64,000 bases of DNA, taken from IMG/VR virus record IMGVR_UViG_3300045988_163643, positions 64,001 through 128,000 of that record. One strand, written 5' to 3'. How positions within the stretch are numbered: the first letter of the stretch is position 1; each line of letters starts with the position of its first letter. Below the pieces are notes generated by a model. The model saw only the letters and a list, made by a program, of their open reading frames with translations, did no database searches and was not told the DNA's origin. The position numbers were made by a program, and so were the translations under genes. The stretch is from a virus. This document shows, piece after piece, positions 23,279 to 58,862 of this stretch.

Positions 23279-23299
23279 CTATTTTTTTTATGTTTTTTT

Positions 23300-23420: not shown

Positions 23421-23596
23421 TTTTATATTGATTTTCAAAATTCATATTTCTATTTTATTTTTTTCTAATATTGCCGTGTGACGTGATATAAGGCAATTTA
23501 AGGATTTTCAGAGCAGTTACTGTATAATTTATTCAATTGATTAATATATCCTCTTATATTGCCTTATATGGATACATGAAAACTTTTAAAAAATTA

Positions 23597-23624
23597 TTGA
23601 CATTAAATAAAGTTATGCTATCAT
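23597..23624 (+). promoter_or_regulatory. candidate promoter TTGACA-16-TATCAT
   Basis: Exact -35, imperfect -10. About 45 nt upstream of the small ORF. Confidence 0.4.
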
Positions 23625-23667
23625 TATATTAAATATTAATAAAATTAAATAAAGGTGGTTGATTGAA

Positions 23668-23865
23668 TTGAAGAAATATAGTATAGAAATAAAAGGCAAT
23701 ATATGGACAAGAGAATTAATTATAAATATATGCAGGGAAAAATCAATTAAATATAATGTAACAGAGTTATTAAGTGGATTAAAATATTGTATGCAATTAA
23801 ATGATTTAGGCTTTTGGGACTATCATTATTTCAATAGACTTAAAAAAATAGAAGAGAAAAAATAG
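23668..23865 (+). CDS. 65-aa hypothetical protein (TTG start)
   Basis: GGTGG SD 9 nt upstream of TTG 23668. Followed directly by a terminator. Confidence 0.4.
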   Translation: MKKYSIEIKGNIWTRELIINICREKSIKYNVTELLSGLKYCMQLNDLGFWDYHYFNRLKKIEEKK

Positions 23866-23891
23866 TAGAGACTGCTCTGCTATTTTTTTTA
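23865..23891 (+). terminator. rho-independent terminator
   Basis: AGTAGAG-ACTG-CTCTGCT stem followed by a T8 run. Confidence 0.6.
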
Positions 23892-24090
23892 TTGTATATA
23901 TGAATAACTGTTCATATGTTTATATGTTTAATTGTATGCAATATACTATATAATGCATCATGTATACAATATAATATATCATGTATTGTTTATTATGTAT
24001 AGTGTATAATGTATGCAATATTATGCATATTGTATCTTGTATGCAATATATAATATACTGTATGTAATATTATGTATATTGTATTATATT
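23890..24090. repeat. TGTAT(A/G)CAATAT array, block 2
   Basis: TGTATACAATATAAT at 23961. TGTATGCAATAT at 23933, 24010 and 24040. Confidence 0.75.
23897..23916. promoter_or_regulatory. palindrome ATATGAA-TAACTG-TTCATAT (SOS-box-like)
   Basis: 7-bp perfect arms. Related copies at 24528-24549, 24602-24622, 24662-24681 and 24929-24948. Confidence 0.5.
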
Positions 24091-24424
24091 AGTTAACTTG
24101 TAAACTATTATCATATTGATAATAAATAATACTTGACAAATAAACAGTTGTTCTGTAATCGAACGTAGCATATTTTATAATGTTTGTCAACAGTTATTTT
24201 TAGCTAAAAAGTTTAGTATAAGTAAACAATGCAAGTGTGAAACCATTGAAAATACTATATTATCATATTGATAAATTTACAAATACTAAGAAAAAATCAT
24301 GACCCATTTAAATCGATTCTAAGAGGGCGAACAAAATCCCTCTTTATAGTTAATCCTTTATATGAAGTCACTCTATACAGAGCTTTAAAATCGACGGTAA
24401 AAGGTCGGTATATATTTTTAAAAA

Positions 24425-24900
24425 GGTGACTATACATTTTATTGTATGTAATATATTGTATACAATTTATTATCATAATGATAATATATGAATAGATATT
24501 CAGGTATTCATATATAGAATTGTATAACATATGAATAACTGTTCATATGTTTAATTATTCAATCGTATTAGTTGATTTGTGAACTACTATCAATATGATA
24601 ACATATGAGTGATTGTTCATATAATATGTATAATGTATACAATATAATGTACTATGTATACGTATGAGTAACTGTTCATATATTCATATATATACTGTAT
24701 AGTGTATAATGTTTATTGTATACAATATAATATACTATGTATGATATATTATGTATGTTGTACTATGTATACAATATAATGTATAGTGTACTATGTACTA
24801 TGTATGGTGCATGATATGTAGTGTACTATGTATGGTGTATACAATATAATGTACTATGTATGATATACTATGTATGTTGTACTATGTATACAATATAGTT
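24425..24900. repeat. TGTATACAATATA array with ~115-bp tandem duplication, block 3
   Basis: TGTATACAATATA at 24634, 24717, 24766, 24836 and 24886. Long repeat GTACTATGTATGATATA(T/C)TATGTATGTTGTACTATGTATACAATATA occurs twice. Confidence 0.8.
24528..24549. promoter_or_regulatory. palindrome CATATGAA-TAACTG-TTCATATG
   Basis: 8-bp perfect arms. Confidence 0.5.
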
Positions 24901-24969
24901 GATAAGTGAACTATTATCAATATGATAACATATGAGTTACTGTTCATACGTTCATATGATAGTATGATA

Positions 24970-24981
24970 GAACAACTGTTC
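24970..24981. promoter_or_regulatory. perfect GAAC-N4-GTTC (Cheo/LexA-box-like)
   Basis: Reads GAACAACTGTTC. A reverse-orientation GAACAACTGTTT lies at ~24145-24156. Confidence 0.4.
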
Positions 24982-25173
24982 CTATGATGTTCTATGTTAG
25001 TAGAACATATGGTACAATAATCGAACTGCATAGAATTGATTGTAAGGCGTTTGCGTGATGTTCTTCTTATGTTACATCGTTGATAGTGTTCCTTCTCTTA
25101 TATTGCCTTGTATTGCCTCATAAGGTTACATTGAAAAAATTAGTGTATTAGAGAAAAAATTTTCATAGGATTG

Positions 25174-25202
25174 TTGACACGGAAAAGGGTAACTGCTATA
25201 AT
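25174..25202 (+). promoter_or_regulatory. consensus sigmaA promoter TTGACA-17-TATAAT
   Basis: Both hexamers perfect, 17-nt spacer. Confidence 0.7.
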
Positions 25203-25239
25203 TATGTTAATAAAAGATAAATAAAAGGGAGTTGATAGT

Positions 25240-25401
25240 ATGAAGAAGTTATTATTTGTTTTGGTGATTTTAGGAGTTATGGTGATTTTTAAGGACTGCT
25301 TATTAATAGGTTTAATGGATATTGTTGATTTTGTGGGTAACTTGTTTAACTTGAATACCGTTGTATTAATTGACTTCTTAAATAATTTATATTATTTATA
25401 A
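25240..25401 (+). CDS. 53-aa hydrophobic peptide
   Basis: MKKLLFVLVILGVMVIFKDCLLIGLMDIVDFVGNLFNLNTVVLIDFLNNLYYL. SD AAGGGAG. Perfect promoter and strong terminator. Below the track cutoff. Confidence 0.5.
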   Translation: MKKLLFVLVILGVMVIFKDCLLIGLMDIVDFVGNLFNLNTVVLIDFLNNLYYL

Positions 25402-25408
25402 GAGGAAT

Positions 25409-25441
25409 AAGTGGGATATATTTTATCCCACTTATTTTTTT
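25409..25441 (+). terminator. rho-independent terminator
   Basis: AAGTGGGA...TCCCACTT stem followed by a T-run. Confidence 0.7.
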
Positions 25442-25464
25442 ATGAAATATGCTCAGGTGATTTT

Positions 25465-25615
25465 ATGTATATTGTATGGTGTGTGGTGAATAGTGTATAC
25501 AGTATTTTTTATTATGTATAATGTATTGTTTATTGTATTGTATATTGTATTATGTATTGTATTATGTTTATTGTATAATGTATTGTATAATGTATAATGT
25601 ATATTATGTATATAT
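25465..25615. repeat. TGTAT-type array, block 4
   Basis: Runs of ATTGTAT, ATGTATAATG and TTGTATAATG. Confidence 0.7.
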
Positions 25616-25685
25616 GGTGATATAAAAGAATTTTATATATTTTTATAAAATATTATATTTTAAAAAGCCAGTGCTCTGTATAAAA

Positions 25686-25770
25686 TTTTAGGGAATTTTG
25701 TGGGGAATTTTAGGGAATTTTAGGGAATTTTAAGGATTTTATAGGGGGACTCTGAAAATTTTGTGGGATA
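25686..25770. repeat. helically phased GGGAATTTT(A/G) repeats
   Basis: Six to seven units at 10-12 bp spacing (TAGGGAATTTT, GTGGGGAATTTT, ...). Confidence 0.75.
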
Positions 25771-26160
25771 TATAATAGGGGGTGGGTCGGGAAAAATCCC
25801 ACCAAGGATTTTATATGTACAGGATTTTAAAAAACAGTTCTTAGAGAACTATTTACAAATTCGACACGAAGGGGGTAGTTTATGTATAATTCGACAAAAT
25901 TCTACACAAATATGAGTCTAGTCCCTTTATCTACACACTATTAAATTTCATCAAAATATTATTAAATTTCACTAATATTTCATCAATATTAAATTTACAA
26001 GATTAATCATATATAAAAATAATACTCTAAAACGCACTATAAAAATACATCACATTGTATACACAACATTGTATACACGATTGTACATTACCACACCACC
26101 ATCCATACACCACCTATTCCCCTATAACAAGCAATGAAATAAAAAGGAGGGGGGTACTTT

Positions 26161-26271
26161 ATGATAATATCAATTATCAAATCAATAATATCACTTCCCC
26201 TTATATACACTATCCCAATAAAATCCAATAAAAATAACTTAAAAATAACTATAAAAAACGTACTATTTTAA
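26161..26271 (+). CDS. candidate 36-aa peptide
   Basis: Strong AGGAGGGGGG SD ~10 nt upstream of the ATG. No promoter identified. Confidence 0.25.
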   Translation: MIISIIKSIISLPLIYTIPIKSNKNNLKITIKNVLF

Positions 26272-26409
26272 ATCAATTTCAGTATATTTTTAATCAAAAA
26301 CATACCATTTTCGACCAATTTTGTTACATTTTTGTACCATTTTAACCTAAAATAATCATAAAATATACGATATACCATATAAAAAGTAATGTATCAAAAT
26401 CATATAAAG

Positions 26410-26454
26410 TTATCCACAATTTCAACAAAGTTATCCACAGAATAATGTGGATTA
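26410..26454. promoter_or_regulatory. DnaA-box cluster
   Basis: Two perfect TTATCCACA boxes (26410-26418, 26431-26439) and one inverted 8/9 box, TGTGGATTA (26446-26454). Confidence 0.6.
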
Positions 26455-26538
26455 AAAATAACGATAAATCACGAAAATATTAATATGTCTATTTTTATAA
26501 TCCCTCAAATCTCATTTTTTAAAGGTAAATAAAAAAAA

Positions 26539-26592
26539 TGTACGGTTAACCGAATAAGAAAAAATCCTACAAAAAATACATGGTTAACCGTA
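26539..26592. repeat. 12-bp inverted repeat GTACGGTTAACC / GGTTAACCGTAC
   Basis: Perfect arms, 30-bp spacer. Each arm contains the palindrome GGTTAACC. Confidence 0.8.
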
Positions 26593-26667
26593 CTCAAGAA
26601 ATTAAAACAAATAAAATACATGATTAATGATATATAAAAACGATATAACATTATTGATGCTTAAAAA

Positions 26668-26700
26668 GAGTAAAAAAATAACCTACTTATAATAGTAGGC
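26668..26700 (-). terminator. terminator downstream of the fibre operon
   Basis: CCTACT...AGTAGG stem with a T-run on the minus strand. Similar to the hairpin at 36962. Confidence 0.55.
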
Positions 26701-26749
26701 TATCTTAATTTATCTTTTTTCTTACGCAATTGATTCATATTGTGTAAAT

Positions 26750-29700
26750 TTATTCACTTGTTGTAAAATCACCTGTTCCTAAATTATTATAATAAATCTT
26801 ATTTACAGTATCATACATACAAATAACATTAGCTTTAGTCTTTACAGGTATTAAGTCTAATATCTGTTGCCCATTTCTAGTTATTGTACAAGCATATAAT
26901 TTCATTGCACATTTTGTACTATTTTCACAACTTCCATTACTTGAATGTTGTCCGAATAAATATAAAGATAGTGTATTGTTGTCATTAAGTAATTGACAGT
27001 TATAAGTTTGACCATTGAATGATATTACTCTATTATTTAATGAATACTCATCAATATCATTAGAAATAGTTTCATCATAAGTGTTTGTGCTTACCATATC
27101 AATTCTATATTTATTATTAATAACTACTAATTGGCATCCCTGGTTCTCAAGACCATTACCATAAGCATCACCAAAAGGTATTGACGTTTTTATAAAGTTT
27201 AAAGGTTTAAATTTCACATACAAGCTATCTGTGTCAAAATTCAAAGTAACTCCAGTATCTATATATTGATTTCCATCACTTTGAATATAATTTAATTGAG
27301 TAAAATCATCTGATGTAATAGTACTTTTACAAGACACATTTATTACTATATCTCCGGTAACATTATTTATATTAATATTTCCTTGTGAATAAACTGTACT
27401 TGTAATATCAGTTCCACCCATAGTTACTGTTACTGTGTCATAAGTGCATCCACTGACAGGTGTGATTGTTGCACTATAAGACCCCCCTATTTTACAATAA
27501 GTACTATTGTTACTTGTTGTACATTTATTTAAAGTATTAACTACTTTTGCAAAAGTACCGTTTTTACTTGTTTCATATAAATACATTTTATTTAATTCTT
27601 CACTAGTTAAAACCCTATTATATATTTCATGTGAATAATAAATAAAGTTTACCCCTTCTCCTATTTTACCAATTATAAAATCAAGAGTGTTATCTGTAGT
27701 TAATGAATATCTATCATTTGTTCCTTCGTATTTTAATTCGCCATTCACATACACTTTACCACTATTCCCTTGTCTAGTCATTGCAATACTCATAAATCTA
27801 TCATATTTCATATCGCTTAAAGGATTATTACCCTCGTTTTCTCCATTTATGAACACAGGAGAAGTGACGCCGGTTTGCATAGCTTTCAATGACCATCCTG
27901 ATTCCGAAGCAGATTGATTAGCTCTTTTACCACATATAATGTGAGTAGCATTACTAAAACCGTGTACATTTATAATTACTGTAAAATCATTAGTTCCAAA
28001 ATTAAAATTATCACCAAAATTAATAGTTGCACTTGAATTTGTTAAATCTAAACCTCCCTTAGTCAATGTAGTTCCTATATAAGAACCTGTTCCAACAATT
28101 GAAGAATTTACTTTATCAACAATTTTATTTGTACTGAAATCATAATCTTCAACATCACAATGTCCTATTAGCCCTTGCGATACAAAACTATTAGATATTC
28201 CACTAACAGTAATATTACAAGTTGCACTTTGACTTCCACAAGTTGCAGTAATAGTACATTGTCCATTTGATGTAGGTGTCACAACTCCATTTTCAACAGT
28301 ACATATACCAGTAGGATTTGCTGACCAAATAACTTCGTCTGTAGTATCACTAGGAGTTAATGTAGCAGTTATCGTTTGTGGTGTTGTATCAGTAAATGTT
28401 AAAGTATTATTATTTAATACAATATTAGTACAAGGCTTATCTTCTTTAACTCCACTTACAGTAACATTACAAGTAGCAGTTTTAGTTCCACAAGTAGCAG
28501 TAATAGTACAATTTCCATCTTTAATCGGTGTTACAACACCTTTATTGACAGTTACTATACCAGTAGGAGTTACACTCCATGTAACTGTATCTGTTGTATT
28601 AGTAGGAGCTAATGTAGCGGTTAATGTTTGACTGTCTGTTGTTGTAAATGATAATGTTGTATTATTTAAAGTTATATTAGTACAAGCTACAGTTTCTTTA
28701 TATTTATTGTCTAAATAAGATATTCTTTGTTTAATCCACGTATACATACTATCAATATCATCTGTTTTATTAATTCTATTTGACCATTTACTTCTTTCTT
28801 TGGTTATATTTTCAGTCCCCCAAATTGATTGAAATGCTCTAAATTGATTTATAATCCTACTTACATTTATTGTCCCATTATTTCTTAATTCCCAATATCT
28901 TTGGCTTATTTCATTAAAATAATTACTATATAATTTATTCCATACTGGATTAGTCTTAGTATATTGACAATTAAGTAAATCTGTTGTAGGTTTGCTTGGA
29001 TGATAAGATATACCAGCATTTTGGAATAACCCAAATATTATGTCTAAATCATACCAGCACATATACCATTTTGACCCATCCCATGTAGCAATAGTCCAAT
29101 TGTTAATCATACTATCAGTTGCACAAGCTAAATCTGCAAATACCCAATAATTAATCGCATTTTGTAAAATTAGATGTTCCTCAAAATGTGCTTTAAAATC
29201 ACTATCACTTGAATTATTTATAAAATTTAGCAAATCAGTTAATTTACCTTGAATTTCTGATGTTTCAGTTCCATCACTTCTATATTCAAAATTAGATAAT
29301 ACTAGACTTCCTAAACCACTTCTATATACTATATTTGTTAATGGATTTTTTTTACTGTTCATTCCAAATAAATCATCATCCTGTTTTATATTAAGAGTAT
29401 AACACCCATTAAATTCTCCGTTTAAATATAAAATAACAGGCTTAGATTTTACTGTAATCGGAGCGTCTACTGGAAATGTAGTATTATCAAAATCCCACAC
29501 CATTTGTGCTCCTACAGAATTTCTTACCATTGAATAATCAGCATAATTACATTTTAAATGGTATGTGCTTGTAGCATAATCAAATATTTTTATTTTTTTC
29601 TTATTTCCTTCAACGTCTTTAAGTTTTAAACTTAAATTTTTATTAGGATATTGTAAACTTCCGCTACCTTGCCATGTGGTTGTTGATTTTCCTTGAAATA

Positions 29701-29989
29701 CTGTAGAACCATATTCATCAACATACAAAATATCTAATTGTACTGGATTAGTTTTGCTTATACCTGTAGTATCACCATCTAAATAAATTATTCCACATGG
29801 ATATGATTGAATTTTAGGTACTATACCATTCTCAACTTTCTTCGCAATATCTTTATATTGCGTATTAAGTTTGTCAACATCACTTTTAATATTATTTATG
29901 TCAGTTTTAATATTATCTAATCCTTCAATATTATTATTTGAATTCTCATTATTATTAATAAAACCAAATTTATTATCTTTATCAAACAT
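26750..29989 (-). CDS. tail fibre / receptor-binding protein with CotH-like, 2x Big_2 and LamG-like domains
   Basis: CotH-like KNLSLKLKD...YHLKCNYADYSMVRNSVGAQM...ILYLNGEFNGCY...WYDLDIIFG. Two TxTATLxPxxTTDxVxWS...TITATCG Ig-like repeats. LamG-like FTVIINVHG...VYVNGELKYEG...IYNRVLTSEELNKMY. N-terminal MFDKDNKFGFI shared with 30011..31654. Confidence 0.7.
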   Translation of the reverse strand: MFDKDNKFGFINNNENSNNNIEGLDNIKTDINNIKSDVDKLNTQYKDIAKKVENGIVPKIQSYPCGIIYLDGDTTGISKTNPVQLDILYVDEYGSTVFQGKSTTTWQGSGSLQYPNKNLSLKLKDVEGNKKKIKIFDYATSTYHLKCNYADYSMVRNSVGAQMVWDFDNTTFPVDAPITVKSKPVILYLNGEFNGCYTLNIKQDDDLFGMNSKKNPLTNIVYRSGLGSLVLSNFEYRSDGTETSEIQGKLTDLLNFINNSSDSDFKAHFEEHLILQNAINYWVFADLACATDSMINNWTIATWDGSKWYMCWYDLDIIFGLFQNAGISYHPSKPTTDLLNCQYTKTNPVWNKLYSNYFNEISQRYWELRNNGTINVSRIINQFRAFQSIWGTENITKERSKWSNRINKTDDIDSMYTWIKQRISYLDNKYKETVACTNITLNNTTLSFTTTDSQTLTATLAPTNTTDTVTWSVTPTGIVTVNKGVVTPIKDGNCTITATCGTKTATCNVTVSGVKEDKPCTNIVLNNNTLTFTDTTPQTITATLTPSDTTDEVIWSANPTGICTVENGVVTPTSNGQCTITATCGSQSATCNITVSGISNSFVSQGLIGHCDVEDYDFSTNKIVDKVNSSIVGTGSYIGTTLTKGGLDLTNSSATINFGDNFNFGTNDFTVIINVHGFSNATHIICGKRANQSASESGWSLKAMQTGVTSPVFINGENEGNNPLSDMKYDRFMSIAMTRQGNSGKVYVNGELKYEGTNDRYSLTTDNTLDFIIGKIGEGVNFIYYSHEIYNRVLTSEELNKMYLYETSKNGTFAKVVNTLNKCTTSNNSTYCKIGGSYSATITPVSGCTYDTVTVTMGGTDITSTVYSQGNININNVTGDIVINVSCKSTITSDDFTQLNYIQSDGNQYIDTGVTLNFDTDSLYVKFKPLNFIKTSIPFGDAYGNGLENQGCQLVVINNKYRIDMVSTNTYDETISNDIDEYSLNNRVISFNGQTYNCQLLNDNNTLSLYLFGQHSSNGSCENSTKCAMKLYACTITRNGQQILDLIPVKTKANVICMYDTVNKIYYNNLGTGDFTTSE

Positions 29990-33618: not shown

Positions 33619-34725
33619 ATGTTAAAAGCATATAAATTTAGATTATATCCAAATAAAGAACAAGAAGAACTAATTCAAAAAACTTTTGGTTGTTGTAGAT
33701 TTGTCTATAATCAAACATTATCTTATAGAAAAGAAATATATGAAACACAAAAAAAATCTATGAATAAAACTTCTTGTAACGATTATTGCAATCAAGTTCT
33801 TAAAAAGGAATATAAATGGTTAAAAGAAGTTGATAAATTTGCTCTTACAAATGCAATTTATAATATGAATTCTGCATATCAAAGATTTTTCAAAGGATAT
33901 TCTAATTATCCAAAATTCAAAAGTAAACGAAATAATAAAAAATCATATTCTACTAATTTTACTAATAACAATATTGAAATATCCTTTGAGAGCAATAAAA
34001 TCAAACTTCCAAAACTTAAATGGGTTAAAACTAAAATTCATCGTGAGTTTGTAGGTAAAATTAAATCAGCAACTGTTTCACAAGTTTCTAGTGGTAAATA
34101 TTATATATCTATATTAGTAGAGCAAGAAATAAAAGAATTACCTAAAAATGAATTTACAGTTGGTATAGATTTAGGATTGACTGATTTTGCTATAACTAGC
34201 GATGGAGTTAAGTATAGTAATCCTAGATATTTACGAAAATCATTAAATAAATTAGCTAAAGAACAAAGAAAATTATCTAGGAAGAAAAAAGGTAGTAAAA
34301 ATAGAAATAAACAAAGAATAAAAGTTGCTAGGGTGCATGAGAAAATAACTAATCAAAGAAAAGATTTCTTACATAAATTATCTTCTGAACTTATAAACGA
34401 AAACCAAGTAATATGTTTAGAAGATTTACAAGTAAAAGAGATACAACAAAATAAATATTTATCTCAATCTGTATCAGATGTTGGTTGGTATGAATTTAGA
34501 AGACAATTAGAGTATAAAGCTAAATGGTATGGTAGAACAATATCTTTTGTTGATAAATGGTATCCTTCTAGTCAAATATGTAGTAATTGTGGAAATAATA
34601 CTGGTAAAAAAACATTAGATATAAGAGAATTTGATTGTCCATATTGCGGAAGACATCATGATAGAGATATAAATGCAAGTATTAATATATTAAATGAAGG
34701 ATTGAGAATATTAAATAATAAATAA
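33619..34725 (+). CDS. tnpB: TnpB (IS200/IS605-family OrfB, RuvC-like RNA-guided nuclease)
   Basis: MLKAYKFRLYPNKEQEELI N-terminus. RuvC D (GIDLGLTDFA), E (ICLEDLQV), zinc finger CSNCG...CPYCG, and D (HDRDINASINI). Confidence 0.85.
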   Translation: MLKAYKFRLYPNKEQEELIQKTFGCCRFVYNQTLSYRKEIYETQKKSMNKTSCNDYCNQVLKKEYKWLKEVDKFALTNAIYNMNSAYQRFFKGYSNYPKFKSKRNNKKSYSTNFTNNNIEISFESNKIKLPKLKWVKTKIHREFVGKIKSATVSQVSSGKYYISILVEQEIKELPKNEFTVGIDLGLTDFAITSDGVKYSNPRYLRKSLNKLAKEQRKLSRKKKGSKNRNKQRIKVARVHEKITNQRKDFLHKLSSELINENQVICLEDLQVKEIQQNKYLSQSVSDVGWYEFRRQLEYKAKWYGRTISFVDKWYPSSQICSNCGNNTGKKTLDIREFDCPYCGRHHDRDINASINILNEGLRILNNK

Positions 34726-39645: not shown

Positions 39646-41958
39646 ATGGGTAAACTTATAAGATTAGATAATCCTATTGAAATAGAATTTACTTTGGATA
39701 AAAAGGTATATAAAAGTCCTAATAGTAACTTTATGATATTAAGAGTATTTAGTGATACAATGGAAATTAAACCTTACTTAAACCCTATATATAATAATGT
39801 TAGTATGAAAGTAAATACAGTAGGTGAAATAAAATATAAAGTAAAATATAAAGCTAAAGTAACTGAATTAGAATATGATGGAAAATGGGGATATTCAATC
39901 AAAGGACAAGAGATAATACCTTCTGACTTTTCAGCAGATTCCATTAATGATGATAACACAATGTTAAATTTTATAGAATTATTTATCGGTGAAAGCATAG
40001 CAGATAAATTAAAAAATGTAATTGGCATATGTGATATAATAAAAAATAAAAATACCGATGAACTATTAAAAGTACGTGGAATAGGAGAAAAGACAGTAAA
40101 TAAAATATATAATTCTTATCAAGAGAATGTTGAAAATGCACATTATCTTATAACATTAAAACAATTAGGATTTACAGATAATGCTATAAATAAATTAAAC
40201 TCAGTATATGATAAAAACTTATATGAAGCATGTCAACAAATAAAAGAGAATATATTTGAATTAGTGTTTAAAGGATTTAGATTAGATATTATAGACAATA
40301 TATTCTTAAGCAAAATGGAGGGCGACAAAAGAGATGAAAGAAGATTAGAATGTTATACTTATAAAGCTATTAATGATGTATTATATGAAGACTTTGAAAG
40401 TTTTATAAGTATTAGTAGATTTATGAGATTACCAATAATAGAGAATACAGTAGATAATGTCGGAGATGAAATATTTAATAAATGTATAAACAAATTAATA
40501 AAAGATAGAAAAATTTATATCATAGAAGATAAATATATAACAACTTATGGTATTTATAATTGTGATGTTAATCTATATAGAAATTTAAGAAGATTAATAA
40601 ATGGAGATAACAAAAGTAATGTAGACATAGATATAGATAAAGAAATAGATTATGAAGAAGAAAGATTGGGAGTAAAATTAAACAAAGGACAAAGAAATTG
40701 TGTTAAATCTGTATTAACTCATAACATATCTTTATTAACAGGTGGTGGAGGTGTTGGTAAGACTTTCACATTAAACATAATATTAAACATAATGGATAGA
40801 TTATATGAACCATTCTTCCCTACTTTAGTAGCTTTAAGTGGTAAAGCTAGTGGAGTATTAGCTGAATCAACTAATAGAGAAGCAAGTACAATTCATAGAG
40901 CATTAGGTTTCTCAGGTGGATTTTTTATGTATGATGCAACCAATCCATTAAAAACTGATATGTTAGTTATAGATGAAGTTTCTATGGTATCAAATGGATT
41001 AATGTTAAGTTTATTAAGTGCTATTGAAACTGGAACTAAAATATTATTTATAGGAGATGAAAAACAATTAACTAGTATTGGACATTCTAATACTATAAAT
41101 GATTTAAATAAATTACCAATAAATAAATGTCAATTAAATGAACCTATGAGACAAGCGATGAAAAGTGGTATATTAAATGTATGTACTGATATAAGAAATG
41201 ATAAGAATCCATTTGTAAATAAAAAATTTGCATTATATGGTGAATTAAAAGATATGTCAGTTACTATAGGTGATGATAAATATTGGGAAATGATTAATGA
41301 TTATGTAGAAAATTTTGATGTTAATAATAAATTAGATTATACAGTTTTAGCTTGTACTAAAAAAGAAACAAGTAGAATAAATATAGATATTCAAAACGAA
41401 TTAATAAAAAAAGGTAAACTTAATAAAGACAGTAATTATATAGAAATTAGTACTGACCTTAAGGAAGATGATAAGAAAGTTAAAATGAAAGTATATCCAG
41501 GAAGTGTATTACTTATAACAACAAATAAATATAACTTATTATCTGAAGAAGATTATTATAATAATAGAAAAGACGGAAAAAAATGTTTATTCAATGGTAA
41601 CACAGTAATAGTAAAAGAAATATATTCTGATGCAATTAAAGTTAGTTTCAATAATGAAAACTTTATAATTCTTAGTGAATTTTATGATATATTAAGTGGT
41701 GGCTATAGCTACTCAATACATCGTTCTCAAGGAAGTACTATAAAATATTTATATATCTACTTAAGCAACACATATGTTGTAAAAGAAATGCTATTAGTAA
41801 ATGAAGCATTATATACTGCTGTATCAAGAGGGAAAACAAGTTGTAAATTATATGCAGAAAATTATATTATATTGACAAAAGCAATAAACAACAGAGAGAT
41901 AAACAAAAGACAAACAGTATTAGAATTATTAATAGATGGAAAAATAGCTCTTAAATAA
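39646..41958 (+). CDS. RecD-like SF1B DNA helicase
   Basis: HhH LLKVRGIGEKTVNKIY. Walker A LTGGGGVGKTFTL. Walker B MLVIDEVSMV. YSIHRSQGSTIKY, and C-terminal ALYTAVSRGK. Confidence 0.8.
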   Translation: MGKLIRLDNPIEIEFTLDKKVYKSPNSNFMILRVFSDTMEIKPYLNPIYNNVSMKVNTVGEIKYKVKYKAKVTELEYDGKWGYSIKGQEIIPSDFSADSINDDNTMLNFIELFIGESIADKLKNVIGICDIIKNKNTDELLKVRGIGEKTVNKIYNSYQENVENAHYLITLKQLGFTDNAINKLNSVYDKNLYEACQQIKENIFELVFKGFRLDIIDNIFLSKMEGDKRDERRLECYTYKAINDVLYEDFESFISISRFMRLPIIENTVDNVGDEIFNKCINKLIKDRKIYIIEDKYITTYGIYNCDVNLYRNLRRLINGDNKSNVDIDIDKEIDYEEERLGVKLNKGQRNCVKSVLTHNISLLTGGGGVGKTFTLNIILNIMDRLYEPFFPTLVALSGKASGVLAESTNREASTIHRALGFSGGFFMYDATNPLKTDMLVIDEVSMVSNGLMLSLLSAIETGTKILFIGDEKQLTSIGHSNTINDLNKLPINKCQLNEPMRQAMKSGILNVCTDIRNDKNPFVNKKFALYGELKDMSVTIGDDKYWEMINDYVENFDVNNKLDYTVLACTKKETSRINIDIQNELIKKGKLNKDSNYIEISTDLKEDDKKVKMKVYPGSVLLITTNKYNLLSEEDYYNNRKDGKKCLFNGNTVIVKEIYSDAIKVSFNNENFIILSEFYDILSGGYSYSIHRSQGSTIKYLYIYLSNTYVVKEMLLVNEALYTAVSRGKTSCKLYAENYIILTKAINNREINKRQTVLELLIDGKIALK

Positions 41959-49958: not shown

Positions 49959-49987
49959 TTTACAAAAGTGGGTAAAAATGTTATATT
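49959..49987 (+). promoter_or_regulatory. candidate promoter TTTACA-17-TATATT
   Basis: Immediately upstream of the tandem RNA units. Confidence 0.45.
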
Positions 49988-50013
49988 ATATATATAAGAT
50001 AAAATTAAAATAA

Positions 50014-50110
50014 GGCTAAAACAATTATTCCTTCTATATATCAAAAAACAATTAAAATTAGATTTTTCACCGTCTTACGGTGAAGTTAAAAAGTATAATT
50101 GTTAATCCCC
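50014..50110 (+). ncRNA. structured RNA unit 1 (GGCTA-stem-TCCTTCT-loop-stem-TCC)
   Basis: Stem AACAATTAT / ATAATTGTT. Inner hairpin CACCG-TCTTA-CGGTG. Confidence 0.45.
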
Positions 50111-50134
50111 TTATTAATAAATAAAATTATGTTT

Positions 50135-50206
50135 GGCTATATTAATTATTCCTTCTAATTGGTGATAATAAAGGTATCGATTGTAAAAGTATAATTAATG
50201 ATTTCC
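50135..50206 (+). ncRNA. structured RNA unit 2
   Basis: Stem ATTAATTAT / ATAATTAAT, which covaries with unit 1. Confidence 0.45.
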
Positions 50207-50261
50207 AAACAATATAATTTTATAATAAATATTTCATATACATCACCCCCTTTTATATATT

Positions 50262-50294
50262 ATATCCACTCAGTTCGTTTGAGTGGATATTTTT
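50262..50294 (+). terminator. rho-independent terminator between units 2 and 3
   Basis: ATATCCACTC...GAGTGGATAT stem followed by TTTT. Confidence 0.6.
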
Positions 50295-50299
50295 CGAAA

Positions 50300-50360
50300 G
50301 GCTATAATCAGTTTTCCTTCTATATATAATACATGTGGATGATTTAAATTGATTAATTCC
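50300..50360 (+). ncRNA. structured RNA unit 3
   Basis: Stem TAATCA / TGATTA. Confidence 0.4.
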
Positions 50361-50386
50361 TTTTGATAGTATGTCGCATTATATAT

Positions 50387-50443
50387 GGCTATGTTTACTC
50401 TTCCTTCTTTTCTATTGGCTGAGATTTAGAATAAACAATTTCC
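50387..50443 (+). ncRNA. structured RNA unit 4
   Basis: Stem TGTTTA / TAAACA. The unit is enclosed by the 13-bp helix ATGTCGCATTATA (50371-83) / TATAATGCGACAT (50450-62). Confidence 0.4.
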
Positions 50444-50554
50444 ATTAATTATAATGCGACATTTTATTATTTATATGTTGAATAGATGGTTATAATAATC
50501 TTTATCTCCATGTATTGAATATATAAAATATTAAAATTAAGGAGTTGGTATTTA

Positions 50555-52660
50555 ATGAAAGAAATGAACACTATATATTTAAGAAGAAGAAATAAGGTAA
50601 TAGTTAATCTTAATAGTGATGATAGTGAAAAAGTGAGCGAACAAATAATAGCAACTTCATTAGTAAATTTAGAAAGTTATGGGTATACATTTTCAGAAAA
50701 ACTTATGGAAGAATTAAAATTATTATCTGTTGAACAATATATGGATTTTTATAATATGATAACATCAATAATTAAAGAATTAGTAGGAGTAGATAAAATT
50801 ACAGAACCTATGTATCCTAATTTTCCACAGCAAGTAATGGAAATGGATGAAGTTGAATTATATCTTAATGCAATAATTCATTATATTACTGATGGTCAAT
50901 TAGTTCCTGAGTATGAGAAAAAAGAAAGATTTCCTTTAATAGGAAATTATGACTTAACTGTTATAGACTTAGGAAGTGTTGAAGATTTCAATACAATATT
51001 TACTAATTTAGTATCATCTAAAGTAAGTATATCTGCTTCAGATAAATTAGATGTATCATGGTTTTTAAAAAAATTCAATAAAGAGTATTTAAAAGAAATC
51101 ATGCCTAAAGAAATTCCATTTAAAGAAATATTAAGTTATGTTACTATGGAATTATGGTATGGTGAATATGATAGTGACATTAAAGAAATATTAATACCTT
51201 ATTATAAAACAGCAACAGATGTCTTAAGATTAGCAACAGCTTTAAGCGATGGAGATGAAAGTCTATCAGAGTCTTGTTGTTATAATTCATTTAAAAGAAA
51301 AGATAGAAGAATACTATTAACAATGTTAGAAAATGCAAACAACATAGAAGAAGATATGCTTAGATATAAAGACAGATGGATAAGATTAGGAGAAGTATTG
51401 CATCCAGGTGAATATAAGAAATTTAAAAAAGTTAATAGAGCATTTGACAAAATAAGAAATGGTAAAAAAATAGATACATTTAATAGCAATATAGAAAAGG
51501 CATTTGAAGAAGAAGATTTAGATAAAGTTCTTGAATTATTAACTAGTAGACCTGGTGAATTTGCTAGAAGATTAGACAGGACTCTTAGATTAGCAATAAA
51601 TAAAGATGAAAGCAACAAAATAGTATTAGCATTTAGTCAAATAGCTGAAAAAATTCCTACACCTCTTTTATTACAGATTAGAAGTTATTTCATAAAAAGA
51701 AAAGAAAATAACAGCTTAAGAGTTTTCTCAATAAAAGGTTCAGGAAAATTATATGGTAAAGAAAATGACTTAAAAGAATTAGATGAAGTTACTTGTACTA
51801 GAATAGAAAACATTTGTAATCTTAGATTAATGAATGAATATTCTAAAAGAGATTATTTGGGTAAAGTTTATATAGATGAAGAATTAAAAGATTATATAGC
51901 TCCAATGTCTCAAAGAAATTCCAGTAAAGCATTAAAATCAGTTGCAAAAGGTAGTAAGATGAAAATAAAAGATGGAGCAAAATTTTTAAGAAATTTTGTA
52001 TATTGGAAACAAAAAGACGGCTATAGAGTAGATTTAGACTTGAGTGCAGTGTGTTTTGATAATGAATTAGAAGTTATTGATGAAATATGGTATCGTAATT
52101 TAAGAGGTTACAAAACAAATATTTGTCATAGTGGAGATTTTGTATCAGCCAAAGATGGAGCAAGTGAATTCATTGACATTGATATTGAAAAACCTAAAGA
52201 TTGTGGAGTTAGATACATCTTAGTTTCAATAAATAGTTTTACAGAATATCGCTTTAGCGAATTAGAAGATTGTTTTATGGGTTATATGGAATTAGACAAT
52301 AATACAACTGGTGAAGTATTTGAACCAAAAGCAGTAGCAAATAAATCTGATTTAAGTTCTGATTGTGAACAAGTAATTGCTAATATAATAGATTTAGAAG
52401 AAATGTGTATTTATTGGGCAGATGTCCCAGTAACAAAGAGTTTTGGATGTAACGACATAAAATTTAATAGAAAAAATTTAACATATACTTTAGAATCAAT
52501 AATAAACATATGCAAACCTAATTTATACGATGTAATATTTATGAATGCAATTGCTAGAGGAGAAATAGTAGATAATAAAGAAGAAGCAGAAGTAGTCTAT
52601 TCAATAGATGGAGACGTTACACCATTCGATGTAGATATAATTGTCGGAGAATATATATAA
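50555..52660 (+). CDS. large protein with C-terminal TerD-like domain
   Basis: RVDLDLSAVCFD...ICHSGDFVSAKDGASEFIDIDIEK...VRYILVSINSFT...FMGYMELDN matches TerD-family motifs. The N-terminal ~480 aa are unassigned. Confidence 0.55.
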   Translation: MKEMNTIYLRRRNKVIVNLNSDDSEKVSEQIIATSLVNLESYGYTFSEKLMEELKLLSVEQYMDFYNMITSIIKELVGVDKITEPMYPNFPQQVMEMDEVELYLNAIIHYITDGQLVPEYEKKERFPLIGNYDLTVIDLGSVEDFNTIFTNLVSSKVSISASDKLDVSWFLKKFNKEYLKEIMPKEIPFKEILSYVTMELWYGEYDSDIKEILIPYYKTATDVLRLATALSDGDESLSESCCYNSFKRKDRRILLTMLENANNIEEDMLRYKDRWIRLGEVLHPGEYKKFKKVNRAFDKIRNGKKIDTFNSNIEKAFEEEDLDKVLELLTSRPGEFARRLDRTLRLAINKDESNKIVLAFSQIAEKIPTPLLLQIRSYFIKRKENNSLRVFSIKGSGKLYGKENDLKELDEVTCTRIENICNLRLMNEYSKRDYLGKVYIDEELKDYIAPMSQRNSSKALKSVAKGSKMKIKDGAKFLRNFVYWKQKDGYRVDLDLSAVCFDNELEVIDEIWYRNLRGYKTNICHSGDFVSAKDGASEFIDIDIEKPKDCGVRYILVSINSFTEYRFSELEDCFMGYMELDNNTTGEVFEPKAVANKSDLSSDCEQVIANIIDLEEMCIYWADVPVTKSFGCNDIKFNRKNLTYTLESIINICKPNLYDVIFMNAIARGEIVDNKEEAEVVYSIDGDVTPFDVDIIVGEYI

Positions 52661-54250: not shown

Positions 54251-54733
54251 ATGGCAAAAGCAAAAAAAGAAATAAAGAAAATAATATGTACTACTTGTGG
54301 AAGAGAATTGCCTGAAAAAGATTTTGGTAAATCTTACTCATTTAGAGACAAACTAAATGGAAGGTTACCAATTTGCAAAGACTGTTGTGCTAGTTTATAT
54401 GATAAGCTAATGGTAGATTATCAAGATGAAATGAAAGCATTATATAGATTTTGTATGATATTAGATTTATATTTTTCTAAGGATACAGTTATGGGATTAA
54501 TAAGTAAGAATAGAAATTCCGAAAGTAATCTTGGATATTTATATGTATTAAAATATAACTTAGTACAATATAAAAATAAAACATTCCAAGATACAACGGC
54601 ATTTGTAAATATATTTGGTATGACTGAAGAAGAAATGGAAGAAGCATTATATTTGAATACTGAAAAAACAAAAGAAGAAATAGAAAGAAAAACTAAAAAA
54701 ATAGTTACACCAGAAGTAATCAAACGTTGGGGT
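54251..54733 (+). CDS. terS: putative terminase small subunit, exon 1
   Basis: Lies directly upstream of and overlaps terL after splicing. N-terminal CTTCG...CKDCC zinc ribbon. The ORF ends a few codons into intron sequence. Confidence 0.45.
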
Positions 54734-55072
54734 AATTGCCCCCTATGTTTATAAAAAACATAGCAAACCTTTTGAATTGCTGGAAACCCCTAAAGCTTAA
54801 CACACTACAACGTGGCTAGAAATGGCGAACGTGAATGTTACGAAAGTAGAAAAAAGTTGTTAAGATGATATATGGTTAAATCCTAAGTATCTACAATAAT
54901 GGGCAATCAGCAACTAAGATTCTAAGTGATGATTTGTCATATGAATAAAGTCCAACGACTAGATAGGAATATCGTACACTCAAGCGAGTGGAAGTGGAAG
55001 GTATCCTATAAATATAGGATAATGATATAGTCTAATCTCATATGAAAGTATGAGCAGTCGAAAGACGGTATG
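54734..55072 (+). mobile_element. group I-like intron A (ORF-less, ~339 nt)
   Basis: P1 hairpin GGGGU|AAUU-GCCCC with U.G at the 5' splice site. Core-like ACTACAACG and GATATAGTCT. Homologous to intron D. The 3' end ..GGTATG restores the frame. Confidence 0.65.
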
Positions 55073-55618
55073 TATGTAGCGAATACATATGAATATAAAT
55101 GTTCTGATTTAGAGTTAGACGATTATATTTTTCTCGAAGATAGATATAATCAGATGCTTTTAGCCTATGATGATAAGAATCCTTCATCCCTGTGGTCATA
55201 TCAAGAAATATGTATGAATTATTTACTCCTTAGAAAAGATAGGGGAAATGTTCAACTTCAAAAAAGTATCCAAGAAATTAATAGTAAATTACAAGCAGAT
55301 TGTAAAATGAAGTTATCGCAAATAGATAATGATGATGATGATAATGCTTGTTTTGGAAAGTTTATAGATAAAATAGAATTATATGAACCATGTAATAAAA
55401 AATTACCATTCTTTGAAGATATAGATGGAATAAGACAATACTTAAAAAGATGGTTCGTTTTGCCTTTTGCGAAACAGTGGAAACTAGCTAAAAATGATGT
55501 ATTAGAAGGAGAGGAAGGAATAGAAGATTATGAGGATGTAGATAAAATATATAATGAACAAAATAAGAATAAAGCTGAAGTAGAGAATGAAGTAGGTGAG
55601 GAAGACAATGACAAGTAG
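55073..55618 (+). CDS. terS: putative terminase small subunit, exon 2
   Basis: Frame is open from 55046. Junction gives ..VIKRWG|YVANTYEYKCSDLELDDY. The exact 3' splice site is uncertain by up to 9 nt. Confidence 0.45.
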   Translation, partial: YVANTYEYKCSDLELDDYIFLEDRYNQMLLAYDDKNPSSLWSYQEICMNYLLLRKDRGNVQLQKSIQEINSKLQADCKMKLSQIDNDDDDNACFGKFIDKIELYEPCNKKLPFFEDIDGIRQYLKRWFVLPFAKQWKLAKNDVLEGEEGIEDYEDVDKIYNEQNKNKAEVENEVGEEDNDK

Positions 55619-57777: not shown

Positions 57778-58862
57778 TTGAGAATCATTGGAGTTACGAC
57801 CTTTATTCTTCTCATGTTAAGAAAATGTTAGCAGGTGATGATTATTTTGTATGTAATCTACCTTATCAATTATCTGCCTATCATGGAATATTAACTAAAA
57901 AAAGAATACAAGATATTTTATCAGATGAGAATATGTCGGAAATATCATTTACAATGGAATTTGAAGCATTATTTTATTCTGATAAAGATACTAGTTATTT
58001 TAAATCAAGTGATATATTACCTTGTAGAACATTGGAATATGCATGGTATCCTCCAACACCAGAGGAATATTATAGAAATAAAAATAAAGAGAAAAAGAGT
58101 TATTATTTAAAGAGATTAAATGATAAAGAACTTAGAGTAATCAGTTGTGATATAGCTTTAATGAACAGTAAAAATGGGCATGACAATGATAATGCCGTAT
58201 TTACTTTTATAAGAAGTATTCCAAAGAATCAAAATTATATATCACAAGTTTTATGGCAACAGACTCACGAAGGATATAAAGCTAAGCAATTAGCATTAAA
58301 TATAAAAAGATTATATTTTGATACTCAAAGTGATTATATAGTACTAGATACTGCCGGTAGTGGTATATCTGTATTAGATGAGTTAGGTGAATACACAACT
58401 GATGTAGAAAGAGGAATAGTTTATCCTCCATTAAAAGCAATGAATGATGAAAAATATGAAGAACGTTGTGGTTATTCAGAAGCACAAAAATCTATATTTT
58501 GTGTTAATGGTAGTACAAAGTTTAACCATGAAATTGCAGTAACTCTTAAAACAGCATTCCAAAATAAAACCATTAGATTATTAAAAACACAATTTGAAGC
58601 AGATGATTTTATAGAGGGATATAATAAAATGTCTCCTAAAGAACAAGCTGATAAATTGATGCCTTATGTTCAAACTTCTTTAATGCAAGATGAAATAACT
58701 CAATTGGAATATGAAGTAAAAGATTCTTATATTAAACTTTATGAAACAACAGGTAAACGTAAAGATAGATATTCAAGTTTAGCTTATGGTAATTATTTTA
58801 TAAGAGAAAGAGAAAAAAAATTAAAGAAAAAGAAAAAAGGTGGATTAGCTAATCTATGGTAG
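57778..58862 (+). CDS. terL: terminase large subunit, exon 3 (nuclease half)
   Basis: Junction ..SSAW|FENHWSYDLYSSHVKKM. Frame is open only from 57771. Continues to ISCDIALMNS...YIVLDTAGSG. Confidence 0.7.

What the first reader, a model, noticed from the sequence alone, without database searches (positions are those of the whole stretch)
50014..50462. Four tandem copies of a covarying structured RNA unit upstream of the TerD-domain gene
The 600-bp ORF-free gap holds four units with the same plan: GGCTA, 1-3 nt, 5' stem arm, an invariant TCCTTCT, a variable 20-55 nt loop, the 3' stem arm, 2-4 nt, then TCC. The stem sequence differs in every unit but stays complementary: AACAATTAT/ATAATTGTT, ATTAATTAT/ATAATTAAT, TAATCA/TGATTA and TGTTTA/TAAACA. 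That is compensatory covariation, which is the signature of a selected RNA fold. A TTTACA-17-TATATT promoter precedes unit 1 and a strong terminator separates units 2 and 3. Unit 4 is additionally clamped by a 13-bp long-range helix about 90 nt before the ATG at 50555. The exposed CU-rich 7-mer is anti-SD-like. On the opposite strand it would present AGAAGGA (GGA) in a loop, as in CsrA-type sponges. I could not match the units to any RNA family I know.
Basis: seen in the sequence. Interest (0 to 1): 0.78.

Follow-up and report, generated by a model that had tools for sequence, protein, structure and literature searches.

The report
Conserved RNA modules partnering a TerD-domain protein
The four repeats are real copies of a widespread, apparently uncatalogued structured RNA that always sits next to one ~700-residue protein of unknown function in bacteria and large phages, most likely as that protein's RNA partner in the manner of Y RNAs and Ro60.

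Summary
GGCTA-N9-TTCCTTCT occurs four times in the window, all between 50014 and 50408 on the + strand, against 0.01 expected by chance. Each copy folds as outer helix P1, a pyrimidine internal loop (CUA / NUUU), a 9-bp helix P2, and an apical region that starts UUCCUUCUA and ends UA. A covariance model built from 27 diverse copies scores the window units at 31.6 to 60.4 bits.

The module is not specific to this phage. Loci were fetched by similarity to the downstream 701-aa TerD-domain protein alone. The module lies beside that gene, always on its strand, in 80 of 81 bacterial loci from many phyla (152 copies) and in 72 of 77 phage loci (235 copies). Both helices covary heavily, and G-U pairs fix the RNA strand as the gene strand.

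About 5-9% of copies carry a permuted tRNA-like domain, as bacterial Y RNAs (YrlA) do. No Rfam family reaches threshold on the module itself, and no paper describing it was found.

Best reading: a protein-binding RNA module. Units 1-2 form a free small RNA with their own promoter and terminator. Units 3-4 are leader copies, and they are decayed in close relatives. The anti-SD and CsrA-sponge ideas are not supported. The function remains inferred.

The parts
49959..49987 (+). Sigma-70-like promoter candidate (TTTACA, 17 nt, TATATT with an upstream TG) about 20 nt before unit 1
   Evidence: It is the top promoter-like match in the region (10 of 12 positions). It is conserved in the close relatives L001-L003. 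This is a consensus match only. No transcript data were available.
50008..50116 (+). Unit 1. P1 is 50009-50015 with 50109-50115. P2 is 50020-50028 with 50095-50103. The UUCCUUCU box is 50028-50035. The apical region contains its own hairpin at about 50065-50085.
   Evidence: Model R1 scores it 31.6 bits, E = 4.5e-07. The fold has z = -4.8. Relatives keep P2 through two compensatory changes, AACAATTAT/ATAATTGTT to GATAATTAT/ATAATTATC.
50129..50212 (+). Unit 2. It starts GGCUA at 50135, and the first pair of P2 is U-G. The apical region contains AUUGGUGA.
   Evidence: R1 scores it 57.0 bits, E = 6.9e-15. The fold has z = -3.2. It is conserved in L001-L003.
50262..50295 (+). Terminator-like hairpin (12-bp stem, 5-nt loop, then UUUU) that ends the unit 1-2 transcript
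   Evidence: It folds at -16 kcal/mol with z = -5.6. Relatives show a compensatory A-U to G-C change. The consensus terminator scan did not call it.
50294..50366 (+). Unit 3, a leader copy. Its core is removed by a deletion in all three close relatives.
   Evidence: R1 scores it 51.5 bits. The fold has z = -4.7. The deletion in L001-L003 is seen.
50371..50462 (+). Unit 4. The core is 50381-50449. Its P1 is extended by a 13-bp clamp, 50371-50383 with 50450-50462.
   Evidence: R1 scores it 60.4 bits, E = 6.1e-16. The fold has z = -6.5. The core is deleted in L001 and mutated to CTTTCTTCT in L002 and L003.
50555..52660 (+). Gene for the 701-aa protein. It has a helical N-terminal domain of unknown fold, a TerD beta-sandwich at about residues 462-625, and a small C-terminal domain. 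This is the proposed protein partner of the units.
   Evidence: Matches: Pfam TerD, E = 1.6e-06. phrog_33734, E = 4e-88. NCBIfam NF041916 below its cut-off. The AF2 model has pLDDT 85.5, and only the TerD domain matches PDB folds. The family has 1469 clusters at 50% identity with E <= 1e-30.

Best explanation
Each unit is one copy of a modular structured RNA, transcribed from the + strand.

Anatomy:
- An outer helix P1, whose innermost pairs are the invariant GG/CC.
- A pyrimidine-rich internal loop, 5' CUA opposite 3' NUUU.
- A helix P2 of fixed length (9 bp) but free sequence.
- An apical region that opens with the invariant UCCUUCUA and closes with UA. This region tolerates anything from 11 nt to a whole tRNA-like domain.

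Proposed function (inferred):
- The two conserved loops, held 9 bp apart, form the binding site for the adjacent ~700-aa TerD-domain protein.
- The protein and the RNA form a ribonucleoprotein comparable in layout to Ro60 with Y RNA.
- The apical insert is the variable 'effector' end.

In this window:
- Units 1 and 2 would be made as a free small RNA of about 290 nt, from their own promoter to the hairpin terminator.
- Units 3 and 4 lie in the leader of the protein's mRNA. They would act as operator copies through which surplus protein could feed back on its own expression.
- That feedback is likelier in the many bacteria where the last unit's P1 contains or abuts the Shine-Dalgarno sequence and start codon.

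Shown: the fold, its covariation, its strand, and its near-obligate linkage to the gene.
Inferred: direct binding, autoregulation, and any downstream role such as tRNA or RNA surveillance during infection.
For: 1. The fold is real.
- On 27 diverse seed copies, 91.7% of cells pair, against 55.6% in shuffles and 38-45% when partners are slid.
- 14 of 17 pairs show changes on both sides.
- P1 was not used to pick the seeds. It still pairs at 85.6%, with 6 of 8 pairs changed on both sides.
- The same holds on 135 distinct bacterial copies.

2. The linkage was found without reference to the RNA.
- Loci were fetched by protein similarity alone.
- 80 of 81 bacterial loci carry copies (152 hits, E from 1e-5 to 1e-18, all on the gene strand).
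- These span Bacillota, Acidobacteriota, Armatimonadota, Bacteroidota and others.
- 72 of 77 phage loci carry copies (235 hits, all on the gene strand, up to about 10 per locus).
- Xanthomonas phage XacN1, at 25% protein identity, still has three copies upstream.

3. Nothing else is conserved around the gene in bacteria. The RNA is therefore the gene's only constant neighbour.

4. Position argues for a trans-acting RNA and against a purely cis-acting leader.
- Copies lie after the stop codon and before a terminator in Niallia.
- They lie on both sides of the gene in phages.
- They sit between sigma-70-like promoters in L006.
- They alternate with tRNAs in phage tRNA arrays.

5. Some copies carry a permuted tRNA-like domain.
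- 24 of 269 distinct copies have a T-loop motif in the apical region. At least 11 have the full T-arm, closed acceptor hairpin and D-arm.
- Those copies hit Rfam YrlA at 31-38 bits, local E = 2e-07.

6. P2 is 9 nt long in 126 of 132 scorable bacterial copies (135 distinct, 3 not scorable) and in 73 of 93 scorable phage copies. About 20 loop nucleotides are invariant across phyla. This fits a protein that measures the distance between two loops.

7. In diverged protein clades (Weasels2, LpeD) the loop boxes change together, to UUACUUCU and GCUCACC, while the architecture stays.

8. In close relatives of this phage the promoter, units 1-2 and the terminator are kept, while the cores of units 3 and 4 are lost.

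9. In Paenibacillus the GGAG of the ribosome-binding site lies in the 3' strand of the last unit's P1, 6-10 nt before the start codon.
Against: - No binding, transcript or phenotype data exist. Adjacency does not prove contact.
- The protein has no recognisable RNA-binding domain. Its helical domain matches no solved fold, including Ro60.
- Invariance of about 20 loop nucleotides across phyla is also what a small-molecule aptamer or a ribozyme core would show.
- Two tandem copies in a 5' UTR, with the SD in P1 and a U-run after it, is the classic riboswitch layout.
- In this window unit 4 ends about 90 nt before the start codon, and the AAGGAG site at 50539 is outside it. Direct occlusion is therefore not evident here.
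- One bacterial locus (L180) and five phage loci show no copy within the flanks held.
Confidence: 0.55

Rival explanations
1. Tandem riboswitch aptamers. Each unit binds a small molecule or ion related to the (unknown) job of the TerD-domain protein. Ligand-stabilised P1 hides the ribosome-binding site or forms a terminator.
For: About 20 loop nucleotides are invariant while the stems vary. In most bacteria there are two tandem copies in the 5' UTR. In Paenibacillus the SD lies inside P1 and a U-run follows it. TerD domains are thought to bind Ca2+ or nucleotide-like ligands (PMC7159879).
Against: Copies lie after the stop codon and before a terminator. Phages carry arrays of up to about 10 copies on both sides of the gene. 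Copies alternate with tRNAs far from any start codon. Some copies have their own promoters. Some carry whole tRNA-like domains in the apical region. Only one gene family is ever associated. In the window, units 1 and 2 are cut off from the gene by a terminator.
Confidence: 0.13
2. A purely cis-acting leader or operator or mRNA-stability element of the TerD-family gene, with no independent small RNA.
For: Most bacterial copies are in the 5' UTR, ending 0-15 nt before the start codon in roughly 40% of the sampled loci.
Against: Units 1 and 2 of the window have their own promoter-like site and terminator, and they are the copies conserved in relatives. The leader copies, units 3 and 4, have decayed. 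Copies also occur downstream of the gene, in tRNA arrays, and remote from the gene on the same 463-kb contig (L044 and L293).
Confidence: 0.1
3. A base-pairing regulatory RNA or sponge. The exposed UCCUUCU acts as an anti-SD-like seed that occludes purine-rich ribosome-binding sites of host or phage mRNAs, as the CU-rich loops of LhrC or RsaE do. The reader's alternative was a GGA-presenting CsrA sponge on the other strand.
For: CCUUC can pair with GGAGG through one G-U. The box is single-stranded in the predicted folds.
Against: The box is invariant across phyla that differ in SD usage, whereas a seed would track its targets. It becomes UUACUUCU in the Weasels2 and LpeD systems. A seed model explains neither the second conserved loop nor the fixed 9-bp P2 nor the strict gene linkage. 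The opposite strand is excluded by the G-U pairs and the strand bias.
Confidence: 0.07
4. A new self-cleaving ribozyme, or an RNA-processing signal that helps release neighbouring tRNAs from phage tRNA arrays, as theta (HDV-like) ribozymes do.
For: Copies directly flank tRNAs with gaps of 3-5 nt in L055. The loop nucleotides are highly conserved. Gut phages do use small ribozymes next to tRNAs (PMC10879173).
Against: No ribozyme family in Rfam matches. The HDV-like topology fails, because there is no conserved 3' strand for a P1 formed by GGCUA. Most copies, including all four here, are nowhere near a tRNA. Strict linkage to one protein family is not a ribozyme trait.
Confidence: 0.05

Closest known systems
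Bacterial Y RNAs (YrlA, Rfam RF02553) with Ro60/Rsr
   Same: These are small RNAs encoded beside their protein partner, often in several copies. The 5' and 3' ends pair into a long stem carrying a conserved bulged or loop site. The apical end is a module that can be a tRNA-like domain in the same permuted order, T-arm then closed acceptor hairpin then D-arm (PMC4201824). They are also found in phages.
   Different: The partner is not a TROVE/Ro60 protein. No Pfam TROVE hit was found in the 20 ORFs scanned, and the model shows no fold similarity to Ro60. The Rsr-binding motif GNCGAAN0-1G is absent. The conserved boxes are GGCUA, UCCUUCUA and UUUCC instead. Most copies, including all four here, have no tRNA-like domain. 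The Rfam YrlA score stays below the gathering threshold, and only insert-bearing copies hit at all.
Autoregulatory mRNA leaders of RNA-binding proteins (ribosomal-protein leaders; T4 RegA/gp32-type operators)
   Same: A copy of the protein's RNA target lies in its own 5' UTR and overlaps the ribosome-binding site.
   Different: Here the 'true' target would itself be a dedicated small RNA, not rRNA. Binding is untested.
Tandem riboswitches (for example glycine)
   Same: Two adjacent aptamer-like units have invariant loops and covarying stems, and P1 is coupled to the SD or a terminator.
   Different: Copies also occur in 3' UTRs, in tRNA arrays, with their own promoters, and with tRNA-like inserts. 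Only a single gene family is associated.
Theta / minimal HDV-like ribozymes of gut phages (PMC10879173)
   Same: These are small structured RNAs embedded in phage tRNA clusters, with a pyrimidine-rich UCC-containing loop.
   Different: There is no nested double pseudoknot, no match to any model, and most copies are not adjacent to a tRNA.

Membership tests
Bacterial Y RNA / YrlA (RF02553) | Reaches the Rfam gathering score (69 bits) | tested here: not met
   The window units give no YrlA hit even at E <= 10. Related copies that carry a tRNA-like insert reach only 31-38 bits.
Bacterial Y RNA / YrlA (RF02553) | Encoded next to a Ro60/Rsr (TROVE-domain) gene | tested here: not met
   The neighbour is the TerD-domain protein. 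No TROVE hit was found in 20 window ORFs, namely the 10 flanking ones and the 10 largest. The AF2 model shows no Ro60-like fold match in the PDB.
Bacterial Y RNA / YrlA (RF02553) | Rsr-binding motif GNCGAAN0-1G in the stem (PMC4201824) | tested here: not met
   The conserved stem and loop boxes are GGCUA / NUUUCC and UCCUUCUA..UA.
Bacterial Y RNA / YrlA (RF02553) | tRNA-like domain (T-arm, closed acceptor stem-loop, D-arm) on top of the stem | tested here: not met
   It is absent from all four window units. It is present in at least 11, and possibly 24, of 269 related copies.
Riboswitch (tandem aptamers) | Always in the 5' UTR with an expression platform acting on the downstream gene | tested here: not met
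   Many copies lie downstream of the gene, in tRNA arrays, or behind a terminator. Some bacterial copies do overlap the SD.
Riboswitch (tandem aptamers) | Specific binding of a small ligand | not testable with these tools
   This needs in-line probing, ITC or similar.
CsrA/RsmA-sequestering sponge RNA | Multiple GGA motifs presented in hairpin loops of the transcribed strand | tested here: not met
   GGA would appear only on the - strand. G-U pairs and a 277:0 strand bias put the RNA on the + strand.
HDV-like / theta ribozyme | Nested double pseudoknot with P1 formed by the 5' end, P1.1, and a catalytic C in J4/2. Match to the Rfam HDV-like models. | tested here: not met
   No Rfam hit. No conserved complement to GGCUA is found inside the units.
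Type III toxin-antitoxin antitoxin repeats (ToxI-like) | Near-identical short direct repeats next to a ToxN-type endoribonuclease | tested here: not met
   The units share only the loop boxes and their stems all differ. The neighbouring protein gives no PADLOC hit.
The new module defined here (model R1) | P1 ending in GG/CC. CUA/NUUU loop. 9-bp P2. UCCUUCUA..UA apical junction. Same strand as, and adjacent to, a TerD-family ~700-aa gene. | tested here: met
   All four window units score 31.6-60.4 bits and lie directly upstream of the gene.

The most novel reading that the evidence does not exclude
A previously unrecognised ribonucleoprotein that is widespread in bacteria and phages. An uncharacterised ~700-aa protein (helical domain plus TerD domain) would work with dedicated modular small RNAs. 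It would be functionally analogous to Ro60 with Y RNA but built from unrelated parts. Large phages would have expanded the RNAs into arrays embedded in their tRNA clusters, some copies carrying tRNA mimics. The function could be tRNA or RNA surveillance, repair, or counter-defence during infection.
Probability: 0.45. Interest if true: 0.92.

Novelty: new variant of a known kind. Interest (0 to 1): 0.86.

Why it matters
If the reading is right, three things follow.

- It gives a first functional handle, an RNA ligand, to a large protein family of unknown function. That family has about 1,500 clusters at 50% identity and is present in many bacterial phyla and in large and jumbo phages.
- It adds a second, independently evolved example of the Y-RNA design: a protein-binding stem plus an exchangeable effector domain that includes tRNA mimics.
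- It explains part of the 'dark' non-coding DNA in phage tRNA regions.

Even on the minimal reading, this is a well-supported new RNA family with strong covariation and a ready covariance model. It is directly testable by pull-down, gel shift and reporter assays in culturable Paenibacillus or Niallia.

Tried and rejected
- **Rfam.** Searched the window, the region at E <= 10, phage loci and bacterial loci. The only hits were sub-threshold YrlA on copies bearing a tRNA-like insert, plus chance hits.
- **tRNA search of the window.** None found.
- **DNA similarity to GenBank phages.** None.
- **HDV-like or theta ribozyme reading.** Checked against the published description and the drz-Mtgn-1 sequence. 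Rejected because no 3' partner for a P1 formed by GGCUA is conserved.
- **Ro60-like fold for the protein.** The AF2 model (pLDDT 85.5) matches only TerD domains in the PDB, and only uncharacterised homologues in BFVD. A profile search against PDB sequences found nothing further.
- **Defence-system membership.** No PADLOC hit.
- **Conserved gene neighbourhood in bacteria.** None found.
- **Kissing-loop pairing between the apical regions of tandem units.** The observed mean complementary run is 3.94, against 3.98 in shuffles. Rejected.
- **Extra copies elsewhere in the window.** Only a 19.5-bit hit on the - strand inside an ORF, judged to be chance.
- **Literature searches.** Terms used were TerD with Y RNA, tRNA-like or structured ncRNA, SCO0854/MXAN_6230, YrlA with phage, and the box sequence. 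Nothing relevant was found. The library lacks most subscription journals, so a prior description cannot be excluded.
- **One look-up failed.** P0067 was not on record.

Full report
**1. The observation**

The 600-bp ORF-free gap between 49941 and 50555 holds four matches to GGCTA-N9-TTCCTTCT. They start at 50014, 50135, 50300 and 50387, all on the + strand. They are the only matches in the 64-kb window, against 0.01 expected by chance.

The 9 nt between the two boxes pair with 9 nt further downstream. That 3' arm is followed by (N)UUUCC. The CC of that tail pairs with the GG of GGCUA, and the pairing runs outwards for 3-7 more variable base pairs.

Each unit therefore has these parts:
- P1, the outer helix;
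- an internal loop, 5' CUA opposite 3' NUUU;
- P2, 9 bp;
- an apical region of 20-60 nt that opens UUCCUUCUA and closes UA.

Thermodynamic folding recovers this plan for all four units, with z-scores of -3.2 to -6.5.

The promoter-like TTTACA-17-TATATT site is the best match in the region, but such matches are no commoner there than in shuffles. The hairpin between units 2 and 3 is strong, at -16 kcal/mol with z = -5.6, and is followed by UUUU. The simple terminator scan missed it. The 13-bp clamp around unit 4 is real.

**2. The family**

The window is an AT-rich (22-28% GC) large phage. It has no tRNA genes and no DNA-level relative among GenBank phages. Three IMG/VR contigs encode the downstream 701-aa protein at about 90% identity. 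In them, unit 1 keeps its P2 through two compensatory changes.

A pattern scan of viral contigs returned many chance hits. It also returned clusters of two to five true copies whose stems are entirely different yet still complementary.

I aligned 27 diverse copies (A2). The named structure pairs in 91.7% of cells, against 55.6% in shuffles and 38-45% when partners are slid. Fourteen of 17 pairs show changes on both sides. The seeds had been chosen for P2 pairing, so the P2 figure is partly circular. P1 was not used in the choice. It still pairs at 85.6%, with 6 of 8 pairs changed on both sides.

The covariance model R1 finds exactly the four units in the window, at 60.4, 57.0, 51.5 and 31.6 bits. 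Nothing else there is credible.

**3. Linkage to the protein**

The downstream gene (50555-52660) encodes a protein with one weak Pfam hit, TerD, over residues 462-583. It matches phrog_33734. It also matches NCBIfam NF041916, 'MXAN_6230/SCO0854 family', below that model's cut-off.

Homologues at 40-49% identity are common in bacterial chromosomes. The family comprises 1469 clusters at 50% identity with E <= 1e-30.

In Niallia circulans two units lie immediately after the stop codon and are followed by a terminator.

I then fetched loci by protein similarity alone, without reference to the RNA.
- Bacteria: 80 loci from many phyla. R1 finds 152 copies in 80 of the 81 loci searched. All are on the gene strand and all lie directly next to the gene. 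A plain regex finds copies in 78 of the 82 loci it was run on.
- Phages: 77 further loci give 235 copies in 72 loci. All are on the gene strand, on either side of the gene, with up to about ten per locus.
- Xanthomonas phage XacN1, at 25% protein identity, has three copies upstream. A 485-kb uncultured phage has three copies downstream.
- Rhodococcus phage Weasels2 and Lactobacillus phage LpeD have units of the same architecture with altered boxes, UUACUUCU and GCUCACC.

Apart from the RNA, the bacterial gene has no conserved neighbours.

**4. Strand and conservation**

The first pair of P2 is U-G in 98 of 135 distinct bacterial copies, and another P2 pair is U-G in 99. These would be A-C mismatches on the other strand. 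The RNA is therefore read from the gene strand. This agrees with the 277:0 strand bias of regex-defined copies.

About 20 nucleotides are invariant or nearly so across phyla. They are G7, G8, C9, U10, A11, U12, the closing C-G pair of P2, UCCUUCUA, the UA before the 3' arm, the UUU, and the CC.

The 5' arm of P2 is 9 nt long in 126 of 132 scorable bacterial copies and in 73 of 93 scorable phage copies.

**5. Context beyond the 5' UTR**

In phages the gene and its units sit in or beside tRNA clusters. In L055 units and tRNAs alternate, with gaps of 3-5 nt. In L006 sigma-70-like promoters separate groups of units.

Units also occur remote from the gene on the same contig. L044 and L293 both come from one 463-kb contig.

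Of 269 distinct copies the apical region has a median length of 24 nt (range 11-227). Twenty-four contain a T-loop motif. At least 11 contain a complete permuted tRNA body, that is T-arm, acceptor stem closed by a loop, then D-arm. This is the layout of the bacterial Y RNA YrlA. These copies, and only these, hit Rfam YrlA at 31-38 bits, below the gathering score of 69.

The published Rsr-binding motif, GNCGAAN0-1G (PMC4201824), is absent from the units.

**6. The protein**

An AlphaFold2 model built from 40 homologues is confident, with pLDDT 85.5 and pTM 0.82. It shows a helical N-terminal region of about 430 residues, a TerD beta-sandwich, and a small C-terminal domain.

Foldseek against the PDB matches only TerD domains. 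Against BFVD it matches only uncharacterised phage homologues. A profile search of PDB sequences adds nothing.

So the protein is not a Ro60 relative by any test available here, and its activity is unknown. No TROVE protein was found among the 20 window ORFs scanned.

**7. How it most likely works**

These facts are best explained by direct recognition of the RNA by the protein:
- near-obligate adjacency with a single protein family across bacteria and phages;
- two invariant loops held a fixed 9 bp apart;
- tolerance of any apical insert, including a tRNA mimic;
- occurrence as free-standing genes as well as leader copies;
- joint change of the loop boxes in diverged protein clades.

The result would be an RNP of the Y RNA type. 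In many bacteria the last unit ends 0-15 nt before the start codon. In Paenibacillus the GGAG lies inside the 3' strand of P1. Leader copies could therefore let the protein repress its own translation. This step is inferred.

In this window units 1 and 2 look like a separate small RNA, with a promoter-like site and then a hairpin plus U-run. They are conserved in the three close relatives together with that promoter and terminator. The cores of units 3 and 4 are deleted or mutated in those relatives.

I put 0.55 on protein binding as the mechanism, and above 0.95 on the units being a genuine, selected RNA family tied to this gene.

**8. Rivals**

- A tandem riboswitch fits the bacterial 5' UTR layout. 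It does not fit the downstream, tRNA-array, own-promoter and tRNA-fused copies.
- A cis-only leader fails for the same reasons, and because the leader copies are the ones that decay.
- An anti-SD seed or sponge explains neither the second loop nor the fixed helix nor the linkage. The box also changes to a non-anti-SD sequence in diverged systems.
- A CsrA sponge on the other strand is excluded by the strand evidence.
- A ribozyme is not excluded, but it has no positive support. No known class matches.
- A kissing interaction between tandem units was tested and rejected.

**9. Novelty**

No Rfam 15 family reaches its gathering score on the module. Full-text searches found no paper linking this protein family to an RNA. 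That library omits most subscription journals, so a prior description cannot be ruled out.

I file the finding as a new RNA family and a new variant of the Y-RNA-like design. It is not a member of the Y RNA family, because it fails every defining test except the optional tRNA-like domain.

Noticed in passing
window 22600-26750: About 4.1 kb without any ORF of 100 aa or more, at the point where gene orientation and GC skew flip. It holds four clusters of 7/14-nt periodic TGTAT-type repeats (about 23264-23410, 23889-24118, 24673-24917, 25460-25625). It also holds several copies of a palindromic ATATGAATAACTGTTCATAT box. This could be an origin or iteron region, or a regulatory region.
   Followed up: partly
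window 54724-55054 (+): A group I intron (Rfam RF00028, 85 bits) splits a phrog_3314 gene into 54251-54754 and 55070-55618.
   Followed up: no
window 33619-34725 (+): A TnpB / IS605 OrfB-type gene, with HTH_OrfB, OrfB_IS605 and Cas12f1-like TNB domains, inside the phage genome. Its omega-RNA was not looked for.
   Followed up: no
window 26750-29989 (-) and 39646-41958 (+): A 1079-aa protein with CotH kinase, Ig-like and laminin-G domains, and a RecD2-like helicase.
   Followed up: no
window 50279-50308 (+): A second promoter-like site, TTGAGT-18-TATAAT (10 of 12 positions). Its -10 hexamer lies inside the GGCTATAAT of unit 3. If it is used, the mRNA for the TerD-family gene would start inside unit 3 and carry only unit 4. 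This is a consensus match only.
   Followed up: no
L210 4928-5274 (Rhodococcus phage Weasels2) and L211 1920-2080 (Lactobacillus phage LpeD): Diverged homologues of the protein are flanked by units of the same architecture with different loop boxes (GGAUUA or GGCUUA, UUACUUCU, GCUCACC). One Weasels2 copy carries a tRNA-like insert. These units are not annotated in the GenBank records.
   Followed up: partly
L006 4738-5051: A related phage contig encodes a tmRNA (112 bits) next to its tRNAs, the units and the TerD-family gene.
   Followed up: no
window 58555-58621 (-): A weak hit of the unit model (19.5 bits, E = 0.0024) on the opposite strand inside ORF 57825-58862. It lacks the invariant boxes and is probably chance.
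   Followed up: partly
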